A DNA stretch of 64,000 bases from assembly GCF_035084215.1 (NCBI RefSeq), contig NC_090346.1:47244001-47308000 (forward strand). The letters run 5' to 3'. Under the pieces are notes generated by a model. It ran no database searches, was not told where the DNA came from, and saw nothing but the letters and a program-made list of their open reading frames with translations. Shown piece by piece: positions 1,430 to 47,693 of this stretch (position 1 is its first letter; every line of letters starts with the position of its first letter). The translations under genes were made by a program, and so were the position numbers. The stretch comes from Heptranchias perlo (Eukaryota).

Positions 1430-2580
1430 GCCATACCTCTCCTCAGGCAACTCCGCCCCCCCCCACACCCGCCCCCGCCCTAGCCCTGAATTGGCATCTT
1501 TCTCTAGTTTCTCTCCGATATGCCCTCCCTGAGCTCAGCTCGTCCATGAGACCCACCTCCTTCTCCCTTTACCTCATCCCCATTAAACTGCTGACCACCC
1601 GACTTCCCTTCCTGGCCCCCATGCTAGCTGGCATTGTAAATGGTTCCTTCTCCTCGGGTACTGTCCCCCTCCCTTTCAAAACCGCTGTCCTCGAAAATCA
1701 CCCTCAATCACTCTGTCTTTGCAAACTACCGCCCCATCCCCAACCTCCCTTTCCTCTCCAAAGTCCTCGAAAATGTTCTTGCCTCCCATCTTTCCCGCAA
1801 CTCCGTGTTTCAATCTCTCCAATCAGGTTTCCACTCCTTCCACAGCACTGATACGGCCCTAATCAAAGTCCCAAATGACATCTTCTGTGACTGTGACCAT
1901 GATGCACTGTCCCTCCTCATCCTTCTCGACCTGTCTGCAGCCTTTGACATCGTTGACCACACCATCCTCCTCCAAAGCCTCTCCTCCATCGTCCAGCTCA
2001 GTAGAACTGCCCTCGCCTGATTCCTCTCTTACCTATCCAATTGTAGCCAGGGCACCTCCAGCAGAGGCTTCTCTTCCCACCCCCACACTGCTGCCTTTGG
2101 AGTTCCCCAAGGATCTATCCATGACTCCCTCCTCTTCCTCACCTCCACGCTGCCCCTCAGTGACATCATGTGCTGACGTGAGGTCAGCTTCCATGTGTAC
2201 GCTGATGACACCTGGCTCTACCTCACCACCACCTCTCTCGACCCCTCCACTGCCTCTGTGCTGTCAAACTGTTTGTCCAACATCTAGTCCTGAATGAGTC
2301 ACAATTTCCTCCAGTTAAACATTGGGAAGACGGAAGCCATCGTTTTCAACCCCCGCCACAAACTCTGTACCATTGCCACTGATTCACCCCCACCTCCGGC
2401 CATTGTCTCAGATTGCGCCTGACTGTTCACAGCCTCAAACCTGGGCGTCCTCTTCCACCCTGAGCTGAGCTTCCGACCACATATCCTCTCCATCACCAAG
2501 ACTGCCTACTTCCACCTCTGTCATGTCACCTGCCTCCACCCTGCCTCAGCTCATCTGCTGCTGAAACTCTCCTCCATGCC
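1430..2580 (+). mobile_element. Degenerate L2 LINE ORF2 (RT) fragment
   Basis: NYRPIPNLPFLSKVLE, QSGF, STDTAL, LLDLSAAFD, GVPQGS, YADD and LNIGKTEA motifs spread across frames; C/T-rich L2 composition. Confidence 0.88.
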
Positions 2581-2619
2581 TGACATAGCTTGCTTCGGGT
2601 GGCTATTATCTGCACGAGG

Positions 2620-3320
2620 ACATAAGAACATAAGAAATAGAAGCAAGTGTAGGCCGTACGCCCCCTCGAGCCTGCTCCGCCATTCAATCAGATCATGGCT
2701 AATCTTCGACCTCAACTCCACTTTCCCACCCGATCCCCATTTCCCTTGATTCCCTTAGATTCCAGAAGTCTATCGATCTCAGCCTTGAATATACTCAACG
2801 ACTGAGCATCCACAGCCATCTGGGGTAGAGAATTTCAAAGATTCACAACCCTCTGAGTGAAGAAATTCCTCCTCATCTCAGTCTTAAATGGCCGACCCCT
2901 TATCCTGAGACTATGCCCCCTAGGTCTAGACTCTCTAGCCATGGGAAACATCCTCTCAGCATCTACTCTGTCAAGCCCTCTCAGAATCTTATATGATTCA
3001 ATGAGATCACCTCTCCTTCTTCTAAATTCCAGAGAGTATCGGCCCATTCTACTCAATCTCTCCTCATAGGACAACCCTCTCATCCCAGGAATCAATCTAG
3101 TGAACCTTTGTTGCACCGCCTCTAAGGCAAGTATATCCTTCCTTAGATAAAGAGACTAAAACTGTACACAGTACTCCAGGTGTGGTCTCACCAGGTCCCT
3201 ATACAATTGTAGCAAGACTTCCTTACTCTTGTACTCCAACCCCCTTGCAATAAAGGCCAACATGCCATTTGCCTTTCTAATTGCTTGCTGTACCTGCAAG
3301 TTAACTTTCTGTGTTTCGTG
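2620..3320 (-). mobile_element. CR1 LINE 3' fragment
   Basis: Minus-strand LVRPHLEYCVQF, QRFTRLIPGM and RRNFFTQRVVNL; cataagaa tail repeats at the left end. Confidence 0.9.
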
Positions 3321-3340: not shown

Positions 3341-3486
3341 GCCATGATGTGGAGATGCCGGTGATGGACTGGGGTGGACAAATGTAAGGAATCTTACAAC
3401 ACCTGGAAGGAGAAAGCCTCCGAAAGCTTGTGATTTTCAAATAAAACTGTTGGACTATAACCTGGTGTTGTAAGATTCCTTACGCA
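3341..3486. mobile_element. Non-coding fold-back mini-insertion of the PLE 3' end (partial hammerhead)
   Basis: Antisense PLE tail (gccatgatgtggagatgccggtgatggactgggg) followed by sense GGAAGGAGAAAGCCTCCGAAAGCTTGTGA...; about 20-bp inverted repeat gtaaggaatcttacaacacc / ggtgttgtaagattccttac; TSD TGTACCCAGTA (3330-3340 and 3487-3497). Confidence 0.85.
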
Positions 3487-10621: not shown

Positions 10622-10830
10622 AAAGCAAAATACTGCGGATGCTGGAAATCAGAAATAAAACCAGAAAATGCTGTAAATACTCAGCAGGTCAGGCAGCATC
10701 TGTGGAGAGAGAAACAGAGTTAATGTTTCAGGCCATAACTGACCCTTCATCTTCAGTTCCGATGAAAGATCATCGACCTGAAACGTTAACTCTGCTTCTC
10801 CCTCCACAGATGCTGCCCGCACAGTCCAGT
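10622..10830. mobile_element. Palindromic repeat of a second, probably PLE-derived family with a degenerate hammerhead motif
   Basis: Inverted arms from about 10692 to 10817 (ggcagcatctgtggag...ctccacagatgctgcc). AGTT-CCGATGA-A-AGATC(ATC)GACCT-GAAA-CGTT-AACT at 10755-10791 has hammerhead layout with a palindromic ACGT stem III and a U4 to C change. Confidence 0.65.
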
Positions 10831-40984: not shown

Positions 40985-41370
40985 AACAAAGAACTTGCAT
41001 TTATATGATGCCTTCCCAAAGTGCTTTACAATGTAGTACTTTTGAAGTTCCTCACTGTTGTAATGTAGCAGTCACTTTGCACACAGCAAGCTCCCATAAA
41101 CACCAATGAGATTATGACCTGTTTTTGGTGGCATTGGTCGAGGGACAAATATTGGCCAGGACACCAGGAAGAACTCCCCTGCTCTTCTTTGTATAGTGCC
41201 GTGAGACCTTTTGCATCCAGCTTACCAGGTCCAGGACCTCCGACAATGCAGCACTCCCTCAGCACTGCGCCGAAGCAGCGGCCTAGGTTTTGCACTCGAG
41301 TCTCTGGAGTGGGGCTTGAACCCATGACCTTCTGACTCATGGTGGTGAGAGTGCGACCCACTGAGCCGAG
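40985..41370 (-). mobile_element. DeuSINE copy with internal deletions
   Basis: Reverse-complement head (ggctcagtgggtcgcactc...gggttcaagccc) and tail. Confidence 0.75.
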
Positions 41371-42186: not shown

Positions 42187-42568
42187 GGAGACTTGAGCAC
42201 ATAATGCAGGCTGACACTCCAGTGCAGTGCCGAGGGAGTGCTGCACTGTCAGAGGTGCCGTCTTTAAGATGAGTCTGCCCTCTCAGGTGGACGGACGTAA
42301 ATCATCCCAAGGCATTATTCAAAGAAGAGCAGGGGAGTTCTCCCAGGTGTCCTGGCCAATATTTATCCCTTAGCCAACAAAACTAAAAGAGATTATCTGG
42401 TCATTTATCTCATTGCTGTTTGTGGGATCTTGCTGTGTGTAAATTGGCTGCCGCGTTTCCCTACGTTACAACAGTGACTACACTTCAACAAGTACTTCAT
42501 TGGCTGTAAAGGGCTTTGGGACATTCTGAGGTCATGAAAGGTGCTATATAAATGCAAGTTCTATCTTT
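42187..42568 (+). mobile_element. DeuSINE copy (head truncated)
   Basis: gagacttgagcacataatgcaggctgacactcc... through aaatgcaagttc. Confidence 0.8.
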
Positions 42569-43279: not shown

Positions 43280-43475
43280 TAGAAAGAAAGAAAGACACAT
43301 TTATACAGCACCTTTCATGACCTCAGGACATCCCAAAGCACTTTACAGCCAATTAAGTACTTTTGAAGTGAAGTCACTGTTGTAAATGTAGGAAACGCGG
43401 CAGCCAATATGATCACAGCAAGGTCAGACAAACAGCAATGTGATAATGACCAGATAATCTGTTTTGGTGATGTTA
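43280..43475 (-). mobile_element. DeuSINE 3' fragment; a similar fragment at 44891-45070 abuts the PLE
   Basis: Reverse-complement tail. Confidence 0.7.
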
Positions 43476-43981
43476 TCCTCACTTCCCCTGTAACTACACC
43501 ATACAGGAGTTGACTATTGCTTAAGTATTCCACATCTGCCATTTGCGCAGTTAAAACAAACCCAACTGCAAGCACATCTGGACAGTCAGAGTACATTATG
43601 TGGAAATAGATTTCAATTACTTTGTGTTGAGAAAAGGTATAGTCAGCTGTTACTGGTGGCCTGATAGTCATGTAAATGTTTAACGTACACCGCCTATACT
43701 TGTATTGTTGATCCAACTTGATGTGGATTTTCTGGTTTGCTCCACAGGCTCAGGCACTTGTACCACGTGGTTCAGTATGTTGAATATACTGCTGCAGCCC
43801 TCCTGCCATCTTCAAAAACTCAAACGGGCATCACCTGATCAACACTTCTTGATTTTCCTCATCTTTTGCCCTTTCCGGTATTGTTCATGTTCGGCACTTA
43901 AGGGCTTTGGTCTTTGGATGGCTAGAAAAAGACATTGGAAACACAATTGATGAGATTTGGTTTCAGATAACTTACAACTTA

Positions 43982-44882
43982 CAACCTCAAACAGACCATC
44001 GTTCGCAGCAAACTACCTAGCTTTCAAGAGAACAGCGTCCACGACGCCACACAACCCTGCCACGGTAACCTCTGCAAGACATGCCAGATCATCGACACAG
44101 ATACCACCATCACACGAGAGGACACCACCCACCAGGTGCATGGTTCATACTCCTGTGACTCGGCCAACGTTGTCTACCTCATACGTTGCAGGAAAGGATG
44201 CCCCAGAGCATGGTACATTGGCGAGACCATGCAGACGCTGCGACAACGGATGAACGGACACCGCGCAACAATCGCCAAACAGGAGGGTTCCCTCCCAGTC
44301 GGGGAACACTTCAGCAGTCATGGACATTCATCCACCGACCTTCGGGTAAGCGTACTCCAAGGCGGCCTTCGAGACACACGACAACGCAAAATCGTCGAGC
44401 AGAAATTGATAGCCAAGTTCCGCACCCATGAGGACGGCCTCAACCGGGATCTTGGGTTCATGTCACGCTACACGTTACCCCACCAGCGAACAAATGTTAT
44501 CTGTTTTTAATATAATGGGTCATTTGCTGGCTCTCTCTGCCTTCCGGATGTTTCTGCCTCTCTCTGTTTTTTTTCTCTGTTTTTTTTTTCCCTGTTTGTT
44601 TTTTTGTTGAATGTGTATTCGGGGGTTCTGCAGGTGACACCTCTCTGTCTGAACACGGTGATTGCCTTGGCAACGGGCAGTTGCAGGGGCAGTCTGTAAA
44701 CACCATGTATTGTTCTATATGTATAAATGCGTAGGCTTCAAGGAGCTCTTGAAACATTTGCCTGAGGAAGGAGAAAATCTCCGAAAGCTTGTGAATTTAA
44801 AATAAAATTGCTGGACTATAACTTGGTGTTGTAAAATTGTTTACAATTGTCAACCCCAGTCCATCACCGGCATCTCCACATC
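43982..44882 (+). mobile_element. 5'-truncated Penelope-like retroelement (Neptune-type), GIY-YIG endonuclease end plus 3' pLTR
   Basis: Open frame from about 43983 to 44510 reads NLKQTIVRSKL...CHGNLCKTC (Cys linker)...VVYLIRC...YIGETMQTLRQRMNGHR...HF...E...GLN, a GIY-YIG domain. Flanked by direct repeat ACAACTTA (43974-43981 and 44883-44890). Confidence 0.9.
44756..44796 (+). ncRNA. Minimal type I hammerhead-ribozyme motif in the PLE 3' end
   Basis: ATTTGC-CTGAGGA-A-GGAGA(AAA)TCTCC-GAAA-GCTT-GTGAAT: CUGAnGA and GAAA cores, a 5-bp stem II, a palindromic AGCT stem III, and stem I with two G-U pairs. Activity is not shown. Confidence 0.7.
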
Positions 44883-45104
44883 ACAACTTAAAGAAAGAAA
44901 GACTTGCATTTATATAGCGCCTTTCACGACTTCAAGACAACCCAAAGCAGCCAATGAAATACTTCTAGAAGTGTAGTCACTGTTGTAATGTAGGAAACGC
45001 GGCAGTTAATTTACATACAGCAAGGTCCCACAAACAGCAATGACATGACCGGTTAATCCGTTCTTGATGGTGTTATTTCATCTAAAATGTATATTTTACA
45101 TTTA

Positions 45105-45999: not shown

Positions 46000-46132
46000 A
46001 AATATAGTTAAACTTGTTAAGTTGAGTTATATTTTAATTTTAAGAAGACACAGGAGGAAAATTAGACCAATTTTCCTACTGTGTCTTCTTAAAATTAAAA
46101 TATAACTCAACTTAACAAGTTTAACTATATTT
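46000..46132. repeat. Perfect inverted repeat (54-bp arms) with a 17-bp direct duplication
   Basis: 46000-46053 is the exact reverse complement of 46079-46132; GAGGAAAATTAGACCAA occurs at 45985-46001 and 46054-46070. Confidence 0.92.
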
Positions 46133-46463
46133 AACACATTTTCCCCCTTTTTGGGAGGGAAATTCCCTCCTGCATATTGTCGAATAGTAACATTTTAAAG
46201 GCTTATTTTGTATGAAGCAAATCTACAAAGTGAGACAAAGTTTTACAGTAAAAAGGGCATCACAGCAACGTGAGGAATCAGGAAGGGGGAAATGAAACTA
46301 CAAACAAAACGCATAAAACTGCAAATGCTGGAAATCTGACACAAAAACAGAAAGTGCTGCAAACACTCAGCAGCTCATTCATCATCTGTGGGGAGAACAG
46401 GCAAGAAAACATTTTGAGTGCGGGTCCTTTGTCAGAAAAGAATCTGCACCTGAAGCCTTAACT

Positions 46464-47186
46464 TTGCTGTTCTCGTCCTTGTATTCAAATCCCTCCATGG
46501 CCTCGCCCCCTCCCTTACATTGTAACCTCCTCCAGCCCTTCAACCCTCCGAGATCTCTGCGCTCCTCCAATTCTGGCCTCTTGCGCATCCCCGATTTCCA
46601 TCGCTCCACCGTTGGCGGCCGTGCCTTCAGCCGCCTAGGCGCTAAACTCCGGAATTCCCTCCCTTAACCGCTTCGCCTCTCCCTCCTCCTTTAAGACCCT
46701 CCTTAAAATCTATCTATTTGACCAAGCTTTTGGACACCTGTCCTAAGATCTCCTTACGTGACTCGGTGTCAAATCTTGTTTGATAATGCAGCTTGGGGTG
46801 TTTTACTACGTTAAAGGCGCTATATTAATAGCCATGATGTGGAGATGCCGGTGATGGACTGGGGTGGACAAATGTAAGGAGTCGTACAACACCAGGTTAT
46901 AGTCCAACAGCTTTATTTGAGATCACGAGCTTTCGGAGCTTTCCTCCCTATCACCTGACGAAGGAGCAAAGCTCCTAAAGCTTGTGATCTCAAATAAAGC
47001 TGTTGGGCTATAACCTGGTGTTGTACGACTCCCTATATTAATAGATGCTTGAAGGGGAAACATTTTGCTGGGCTATGGGGGGAAAGAGCAGAGTGGGGAG
47101 AGCTGGCACAGGCACGATGGGCCTCTTGTCTCTGTGTGCTGCATCATTCTAGGAGCCTATGAAATGCAAGTTGTTGTTGTTGTTGC
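46464..47186 (+). mobile_element. L2 3' end whose tail is interrupted by the PLE mini-insertion and a CR1 tail fragment (47045-47150)
   Basis: L2 remnant RSLRSSNSGLL...GGRAFS...RNSLP; tail ggcgctatat breaks at about 46825 and resumes as aaatgcaagttgttgttg at about 47162. Confidence 0.75.
46832..47032. mobile_element. Non-coding fold-back mini-insertion of the PLE 3' end with a hammerhead motif
   Basis: 70-bp inverted arms (46878-46947 and 46963-47032) homologous to 44770-44882; TSD CTATATTAATAG (46820-46831 and 47033-47044); hammerhead motif at 46950-46988 with GAAA changed to TAAA. Confidence 0.85.
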
Positions 47187-47642: not shown

Positions 47643-47693
47643 ATGTCTCGCAAAACCGAGGAAATCAACAGGCTCACGGAGAGCACCTACAAG
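47643..47693 (+). CDS. BAIAP2L1: BAIAP2L1 (IRTKS, I-BAR/IMD protein) coding exon 1, MSRKTEEINRLTESTYK
   Basis: ATG in aaaccATG context downstream of a CpG island; 17 codons followed by a phase-0 donor AAG|GTGGGT. The peptide matches my recall of the BAIAP2L1 N-terminus (MSRGPEEVNRLTESTYR) better than BAIAP2/IRSp53 (MSLSRSEEMHRLTENVYK). Confidence 0.93.

What the first reader, a model, noticed from the sequence alone, without database searches (positions are those of the whole stretch)
43982..44882. Penelope/Neptune element carrying a minimal hammerhead ribozyme, with covarying copies in the same window
Seen: an uninterrupted Cys-linker plus GIY-YIG frame, an 8-bp TSD, and at 44756-44796 stem I-CTGAGGA-A-stem II-GAAA-GCTT-stem I'. 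The copy at 46950-46988 keeps the pairing with different bases (stem II GGAGC/GCTCC versus GGAGA/TCTCC; stem I ATCAC/GTGAT versus ATTTGC/GTGAAT), which looks like compensatory change. Known: PLE pLTRs often carry minimal type I hammerheads whose palindromic stem III is thought to allow cleavage as dimers. Inference: this lineage has a recently active, ribozyme-bearing PLE family, with an extra A after the CUGAnGA core and predicted cleavage after ...GAAAGCUU.
Basis: partly seen in the sequence, partly recalled or inferred. Interest (0 to 1): 0.7.

Follow-up and report, generated by a model that had tools for sequence, protein, structure and literature searches.

The report
Shark-type Penelope copy with uncut hammerhead
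This is a young, cut-short copy of a very abundant jumping gene of a known kind carrying an already described tiny self-cutting RNA motif; its sister copies do not start or end at the predicted cut site but often start about 30 letters after a TATA box, so they were likely copied from RNA that the motif had not cut.

Summary
Real, and mostly known. 43982-44882 is the 3' 901 bp of a 3081-bp Penelope-like unit (902-aa RT, Cys-linker, GIY-YIG frame), 898/902 identical to an intact tandem copy, inside an 8-bp TSD. Its pLTR holds a minimal hammerhead with every feature of the published metazoan motif, the 'extra A' included. The family is huge and young: 43,684 exact hits to a 44-nt pLTR anchor, 6,571 to this exact ribozyme region. 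The 46950 copy is another subfamily, has G12 changed to T, and its stem I 'A' is not in 4 of 4 sister copies. Real covariation appears between distant lineages (9 of 13 pairs; 0/500 shuffles). Copy ends do not mark the cut site: 164 breaks there against 129 and 212 at control positions. Instead 45 of 93 sampled 5' ends lie 5-22 nt above the core, peaking 29-30 nt below a TATA box in two subfamilies. Templates were therefore likely uncut RNAs copied to their start. Cleavage itself is untested. This scan noted the start-site pile-up before, in this genome and in others.

The parts
43974..43981 (+). left target-site duplication ACAACTTA
   Evidence: 6 of 12 sister loci with both ends in view have TSDs of 8-15 bp
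43982..44882 (+). 5'-truncated Penelope-like copy, nt 2181-3081 of the 3081-bp unit
   Evidence: 898/902 identical to an intact tandem unit in L061; the 4 differences lie in a poly-T tract
43983..44510 (+). C-terminal 175 codons (aa 728-902) of the RT-endonuclease frame; no RT and no start codon of its own
44058..44084 (+). CX4CxxC linker (aa 753-761), the Neptune/Nematis mark
   Evidence: definition in PMC8557442 passages
44172..44228 (+). GIY-YIG motif VYLI...YIGET with C796 and C800 (H820 and H836 follow)
44511..44882 (+). 3' UTR / pseudo-LTR, which in tandem copies is the leader of the next frame; ends at the base before the ATG
44722..44727 (+). TATAAA box, shared by both subfamilies examined (40 or 46 nt above C3)
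   Evidence: promoter role inferred
44752..44752 (+). predicted transcription start (TATA+30), modal 5' end of short sister copies of this subfamily
   Evidence: 6 of 28 ends at this position; start site inferred
44756..44796 (+). minimal type I hammerhead: stem I 44756-61/44791-96 (two G-U pairs), core 44762-68, extra A 44769, stem II 44770-74/44778-82, GAAA 44783-86, AGCU palindrome 44786-89, predicted cut 44790/44791
   Evidence: activity untested
44847..44882 (+). optional tail between the two 3' end clusters of the family (about -36 and about +1 from the ATG)
   Evidence: 42 and 23 of 70 mapped 3' ends; 5 run on into the next frame
44883..44890 (+). right target-site duplication ACAACTTA
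46832..47032 (.). fold-back pLTR insertion of another subfamily; + arm hammerhead 46951-46988 with G12 changed to T (46976); - arm lacks CUGAnGA; 12-bp TSD 46820-46831/47033-47044
3341..3486 (.). fold-back pLTR insertion of a third subfamily, core incomplete; 11-bp TSD 3330-3340/3487-3497

Best explanation
This is a recent, 5'-truncated, non-autonomous copy of a very abundant Neptune-type Penelope-like retrotransposon whose pLTR carries a known-type minimal hammerhead motif; the motif is likely a slow, dimer- or protein-dependent ribozyme that stays uncut in the RNAs that get copied into DNA. Shown: identity to intact units, TSD, copy numbers, two fixed 3' end points 50-95 nt below the predicted cut, no excess of ends at the cut, and a pile-up of 5' ends 29-30 nt below a TATA box. 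Inferred: RNA polymerase II starts about 10 nt above the core. The element's enzyme nicks the target with an 8-15 nt stagger and starts reverse transcription inside the RNA, at either end of the tail. At the 5' pLTR of a transcript it runs off the RNA start after 100-140 nt, giving the many short and fold-back copies. At a downstream pLTR it continues back into the frame and stops at random, giving copies like this one. The ribozyme most likely cuts only when two motifs meet through the AGCU palindrome, as in read-through RNA of tandem copies, trimming it to 3081-nt units (about 0.5 for this role).
For: Element identity and age. Ends: 3' ends bimodal, 42 and 23 of 70. 5'-side breaks at the cut 164, against 129 at -3 and 212 at +2, among about 43,700 anchor hits. 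3'-side breaks 448 against 61,911 continuing; 13 of the 15 inspected continue as element sequence after a point change. Of 93 sampled copies 45 begin 5-22 nt above C3 and none at the cut; 45 of 68 within 137 nt against 8.9 expected, p 7e-24; 40 of 81 after merging identical junctions. The mode moves with TATA spacing: -10 in this subfamily, -17 in the other; 1,271 breaks genome-wide at that one -17 position. Constraint on the fold: among 125 copies picked without the ribozyme pattern, no core position has more than 1 deviant, while N7, loop II and stem I vary by subfamily, mostly between G-C, G-U and A-U. Across 18 representatives 91.5% of cells pair and 9 of 13 pairs change on both sides. Literature: the Anolis PAc ribozyme cuts only with protein, and uncut RNA is the main template in vitro (PMC11167929).
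Against: No cleavage or start-site data: all 24 runs offered were contigs and showed no ends. The 5'-end sample is the first 5.7 Mb of one contig, and arms of one fold-back are not independent. The covariation is carried mostly by two or three lineage changes, and the alignment's core was fixed by the search pattern. The whole stretch from the core to the ATG is conserved, so some constraint may come from RT binding. The untemplated G expected from a cap is clear in only 2 of 7 TSD-flanked solo copies, and the G excess (51 of 100 listed) can largely come from G-rich inverted arms. Six of 93 5' ends lie 2-7 nt below the cut, so a small cleavage-derived class is not excluded. Long copies such as this one would look the same if copied from a cut and re-ligated circle.
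Confidence: 0.72

Rival explanations
1. Rolling-circle model: paired hammerheads cut out the 3081-nt unit, it is ligated into a circle, and long and tandem copies (this one included) are reverse-transcribed round the circle.
For: Exact 3081-bp tandems with one motif per unit; long copies run through the cut site without a scar; proposed in PMC4209133.
Against: A circle has no end at TATA+30, yet about half of sampled 5' ends lie near there, so at least the short copies need linear uncut RNA. PAc ribozyme mutants still insert in vitro. No circle evidence obtained.
Confidence: 0.25
2. The fold is kept as a protein-binding or translation-control structure in the leader and no longer cuts in this lineage.
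For: No footprint of cutting in copy ends; stem I of this subfamily has two G-U pairs and an unremarkable folding energy; a CUU triplet is a weaker substrate than GUC (recalled); 8 of 9 Xenopus dimers did not cut in vitro (bioRxiv 10.64898/2026.07.22.740005).
Against: Lineages with only about 32-40% protein identity keep the exact catalytic boxes, a free N7 and a swapped palindrome (AGCU or ACGU), which fits selection for catalysis; related motifs cut weakly in vitro.
Confidence: 0.15
3. The 5' pile-up marks RT stalling or template switching at the hammerhead fold, or a mapping artefact where subfamilies diverge, not a transcription start.
For: The pile-up is broad (5-22 nt) and adjoins stem I; 34 of 45 copies starting at the -17 position are fold-backs where microhomology can set the junction.
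Against: Ends were mapped against 41 full-length references of both subfamilies, and the mode tracks the TATA box (29-30 nt) rather than the core (10 versus 17 nt); 7 of 11 non-fold-back copies have a TSD of 6-13 bp at or within 2 nt of that position.
Confidence: 0.12

Closest known systems
Minimal hammerheads of metazoan PLE pLTRs (Cervera and De la Pena 2014, PMC4209133; parts 1-2 of 4 read, figures and supplements not seen)
   Same: Type I core, no helix III loop, palindromic 15.2-16.2, extra nucleotide between 9 and 10.1, G10.1-C11.1 pair, location in pLTR, many families with covariation; already reported in Neptune PLEs of fishes, coelacanth and Xenopus.
   Different: About 112,000 core matches above control here against about 4,000 and 9,000 reported there by another method; helix II is 5 bp; cartilaginous fishes are not named in the parts read.
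Neptune/Nematis clades of endonuclease-positive Penelope-like elements (PMC8557442, passages)
   Same: Single RT plus C-terminal GIY-YIG frame, CX2-5CxxC linker, CCHH residues, tandem and inverted pLTRs, optional 30-40 bp tail.
   Different: Nothing of kind; the clade was not placed by phylogeny.
Poseidon_Ac (PAc) of Anolis in vitro (PMC11167929; parts 1-2 of 4 read)
   Same: Two RT start sites bounding a tail, an A/C-rich hairpin there, both-strand cutting, ribozyme not needed for insertion.
   Different: In PAc the ribozyme overlaps the start codon and RT starts inside the frame; here the ribozyme lies about 90-125 nt above the ATG and the tail ends at the ATG.
Adineta vaga Penelope pLTRs (PMC3846280, passages) and Drosophila virilis Penelope promoter (PMC2377424, passages)
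   Same: TATA plus initiator in the pLTR, 8-10 bp TSDs, palindromic junctions (Adineta).
   Different: D. virilis uses a TATA-less internal promoter and has a leader intron; no intron was seen here. The passages read do not map copy 5' ends to the start site.

Membership tests
Endonuclease-positive Penelope-like elements | single frame with RT and C-terminal GIY-YIG endonuclease | tested here: met
   902-aa frames in sister copies; RVT_1 40.5 bits, above cut-off; GIY-YIG E 5e-4, just below cut-off, motifs present. The window copy keeps only aa 728-902.
Endonuclease-positive Penelope-like elements | pLTRs from tandem arrangement, inverted 5' copies, 30-40 bp tail, TSD | tested here: met
Neptune/Nematis | CX2-5CxxC linker between RT and endonuclease | tested here: met
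   C753-HGNL-C758-KT-C761
Neptune (versus Nematis) | placement of the RT in the Neptune group of a PLE tree | not tested
   no named reference sequences were fetched; no solved relative at E<=0.01
Minimal type I hammerhead of PLEs | CUGAnGA and GAAA boxes with U16.1-H17 | tested here: met
   44762-44790; at most 1 deviant per core position in 125 copies chosen without the motif. Not met by the 46950 copy (G12 is T).
Minimal type I hammerhead of PLEs | extra nucleotide between 9 and 10.1; G10.1-C11.1; palindromic 15.2-16.2 | tested here: met
   A44769; G44770-C44782; AGCU, with ACGU in other lineages
Minimal type I hammerhead of PLEs | stems I and II supported by compensatory change | tested here: met
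   9 of 13 pairs with two-sided change, 30 cells, 0/500 shuffles, slid controls 22-50% paired; few independent events; not supported by the in-window pair
Minimal type I hammerhead of PLEs | self-cleavage as dimer or with protein | not testable with these tools
   no raw reads offered; no footprint in copy ends
Rfam hammerhead families (canonical) | match to a curated covariance model | tested here: not met
   no hit at gathering score or at E<=10; expected for a motif without helix III (inference)
Non-LTR retrozymes | short non-coding tandem repeats with a hammerhead in each unit | tested here: not met
   the unit is 3081 bp and coding; the window copy is single

The most novel reading that the evidence does not exclude
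In this lineage the hammerhead sits in the first 45 nt of the capped RNA and works as a sorting switch, not as the tool that defines insertion ends: uncut, capped RNA is the template, and thousands of strong-stop-like run-off copies record its start site in the genome, while cut (decapped) RNA is removed from, or diverted into, another route such as circles.
Probability: 0.25. Interest if true: 0.6.

Novelty: new member of a known kind. Interest (0 to 1): 0.3.

Why it matters
The element and its ribozyme are of a described kind, so the finding as given is ordinary. Its use is as test material for an open question, what PLE hammerheads do. A family with tens of thousands of near-identical copies lets the genome report on templates: ends avoid the cut site and gather at a predicted start site. 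That agrees, at genome scale, with the in vitro result for PAc that uncut RNA is the template, and it gives exact coordinates for cap mapping and cleavage assays.

Tried and rejected
DNA search of the element in its own genome returned nothing because very common words are skipped; no information. Rfam: no hammerhead hit; the miRNA-like hits are only the fold-back insertions and are far below gathering scores. Folding energy of the window motif alone does not beat shuffles; a two-copy co-fold did not give the dimer hammerhead as its lowest state, and the AAGCUU duplex is only -4.3 kcal/mol. RNA evidence: 24 runs, all contigs, kind mostly guessed; 4 laid, with no start or end pile-ups and no credible splice joint; expression is not shown. 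First alignment A1 misplaced the 14-nt-stem family C row, so it was dropped and A2 has 18 of the 19 rows. First 5'-end mapping without gaps gave false ends at subfamily differences and was redone with gapped extension against 41 references. Cap-derived G: significant in the listing (51 of 100, p 3e-7) but not in non-fold-back copies (4 of 11, p 0.34), so not used as support. Rejected: cleavage defines insertion ends; the 46950 copy shows compensatory change; the extra A is new. No solved structure relative. No covariance model was built and R-scape is not available. A genome-wide denominator for one search was not obtained; from the sample, 9 of 21 copies of that subfamily reaching -17 end there.

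Full report
Setting. The window is G000:C25:47,244,001-47,308,000 of a 3.25-Gb animal genome. I call it shark-type from its repeats (recalled) and from earlier scan notes; I did not test this.

1. The observation. The frame 43971-44510 is open, carries CX4CxxC and VYLI...YIGET motifs and matches Pfam GIY-YIG weakly (E 5e-4, 20.7 bits against 22.6). Against an intact tandem unit (L061) the element is nt 2181-3081 of a 3081-bp unit, 898/902 identical, all differences in a poly-T tract; both junctions abut ACAACTTA. TSDs of 8-15 bp were found in 6 of the 12 sister loci (of 30) with both ends in view. The second copy is not. It reads CTCC-TAAA, so G12 is lost (46976). It is an arm of a fold-back insertion (46832-47032, 12-bp TSD) of a different subfamily, and the A at 46950 is T in 4 of 4 sister copies. 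A third fold-back (3341-3486) lacks the CUGAnGA box.

2. The family. A protein search gave 38,615 candidates; all 150 scored were 100% identical over 162 aa. Full copies encode 902 aa with RVT_1 above cut-off. Exact pattern counts, where fold-backs count twice: 6,571 for the 61-nt ribozyme region of this subfamily, 43,684 for a 44-nt anchor below the ribozyme, 61,911 for the lineage's motif, and 119,285 against 6,755 control for the bare core. The family is young and was recently active.

3. Is the fold under constraint? In 125 of 139 copies picked by anchor or protein (14 truncated or gapped ones left out), no core position has more than 1 deviant, while N7, loop II, the last stem II pair and the 5' strand of stem I differ between subfamilies, mostly among G-C, G-U and A-U. 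On 18 hand-picked subfamily representatives, 91.5% of cells pair, 9 of 13 pairs change on both sides, 0 of 500 shuffles reach that cell count, and slid controls pair 22-50%. Limits: the core was fixed by the search, most two-sided changes come from two or three lineage splits, and the tool's shuffle ignores relatedness. A further family at 32% protein identity has wholly different stems with the same core. The extra A, G10.1-C11.1 and the palindrome are the published hallmarks (PMC4209133).

4. Do copy ends record cleavage? No. 3' ends fall in two clusters, about -36 (42 of 70) and about +1 (23 of 70) from the ATG, 50-95 nt below the predicted cut, the tail signature explained for PAc by two RT start sites (PMC11167929). 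That mapping used an anchor below the cut, so ends at the cut were counted separately: 448 breaks against 61,911 continuing matches, and 13 of 15 inspected were point changes, 1 an internal duplication, 1 a true end. On the 5' side, breaks exactly at the cut number 164, against 129 three bases above and 212 two bases below; 17 of 20 inspected were true junctions, so these counts measure background truncation of about 0.4% per base.

5. Where copies do begin. I mapped 5' ends of 93 distinct copies in the loci covering the first 100 anchor hits (first 5.7 Mb of C1) against 41 full-length references. 45 begin 5-22 nt above C3, none at the cut, 6 at 2-7 nt below it. Among the 68 ending within 137 nt, 8.9 were expected in that interval (p 7e-24); after merging identical junctions 40 of 81 remain. 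Both subfamilies have TATAAAT upstream, at -40 (or -39) and -46, and the modal ends are at -10 (6 of 28) and -17 (9 of 27), that is 29-30 nt below the TATA box in both. Genome-wide, 1,271 copies of the second subfamily break at that one base. Of 45 such copies examined, 34 are fold-backs and 7 of the other 11 have a 6-13 bp TSD. An untemplated G is clear in only 2 of those 7, so the cap is suggested, not shown. TATA-to-start spacing of about 30 nt is established knowledge (recalled). I reached this reading before looking at earlier scan notes; notes e1-8656122 (same genome), e1-8021936 and e1-8159767 say much the same, and e1-9938807 reports ends at the cut site in another genome, which I do not see here at the exact site. 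These notes are not independent support.

6. Mechanism. Shown: anatomy, copy numbers, end distributions, constraint on the fold. Inferred: transcription from the pLTR starts just above the ribozyme; the enzyme primes on staggered nicks and starts inside the RNA at the tail; at the leader it runs off the start, and at a downstream pLTR it copies back into the frame and stops, as at 43982. Copies that reach the start must come from RNA uncut at 44790/44791-equivalent. Long copies could come from uncut read-through RNA or from a re-ligated circle, and my data do not separate these. The ribozyme lacks helix III, so it would cut only as a dimer or with protein help (PMC4209133; PMC11167929); the likeliest role is trimming tandem read-through RNA to units. 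The window copy cannot move by itself: it has no RT. It does keep the TATA box and a complete motif.

7. Novelty. Minimal hammerheads in Neptune PLEs of vertebrates are in print, and a 2026 preprint finds retrozymes and PLEs in a chondrichthyan (abstract, Results part 1 of 2 and passages read). I found no paper mapping PLE 5' ends to the start site in searches (listings, plus the passages); the library lacks most subscription journals, so this is weak. Verdict: a new member of a known kind, with a useful but modest mechanistic clue. Interest 0.3.

Noticed in passing
L221, L222 (G000 C1 0.93-1.02 Mb, C1 198.12-198.27 of 198.56 Mb, C4 141.42-141.76 of 141.86 Mb): A distant two-frame Penelope-like family (754-aa frame with SGNH-esterase-like motifs, Pfam Lipase_GDSL_2 E 0.011 below cut-off; 744-aa RT, Cys linker, GIY-YIG frame, 32% identical to the window family) forms tandem arrays of about 7.7-8.3 kb period near contig ends. 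Its 3' region is rich in degenerate telomere-like repeats and its hammerhead has a perfect stem I and a GUC triplet. Esterases in fish Neptune-like PLEs are in print (PMC5408684 passage); subtelomeric arrays of an endonuclease-positive family may not be (one search, listing only). No look-alike in the scan index. Worth its own follow-up.
   Followed up: partly
window 10653-10817 and 46343-46394: Decayed fold-back and fragment of a second hammerhead-bearing lineage (stem I AGTT/AACT, stem II AGGTC/GACCT, ACGU palindrome); in L029 and L090 it lies below GIY-YIG remnants about 40% identical to the window family.
   Followed up: partly
window 47643-47693: A likely first coding exon in a GC-rich stretch, followed by GT, resembling the start of IRSp53/BAIAP2-family proteins (family name recalled, not searched). 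The element's TATA box lies about 2.9 kb upstream on the same strand.
   Followed up: no
window 46014-46119: AT-rich long hairpin flagged only by weak miRNA-family matches; origin not worked out.
   Followed up: no
window 44756-44778 against sister subfamilies: Stem I appears as TTCAC, TTTAC and TTTGC against a fixed GTGAA, and the last stem II pair as G-C, G-U and A-U: a stepwise series through wobble pairs among young subfamilies; direction not established.
   Followed up: partly
L212 (G000 C1 about 5.1687 Mb): The end of the reading frame is joined directly to the predicted start-site region, skipping the 3' UTR: possibly a template jump from the RNA start.
   Followed up: no
window 44891-45080, 41010-41230, 42190-42560, 43280-43480: Several copies of another short interspersed repeat; the element inserted next to one of them (seen; not classified).
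   Followed up: no
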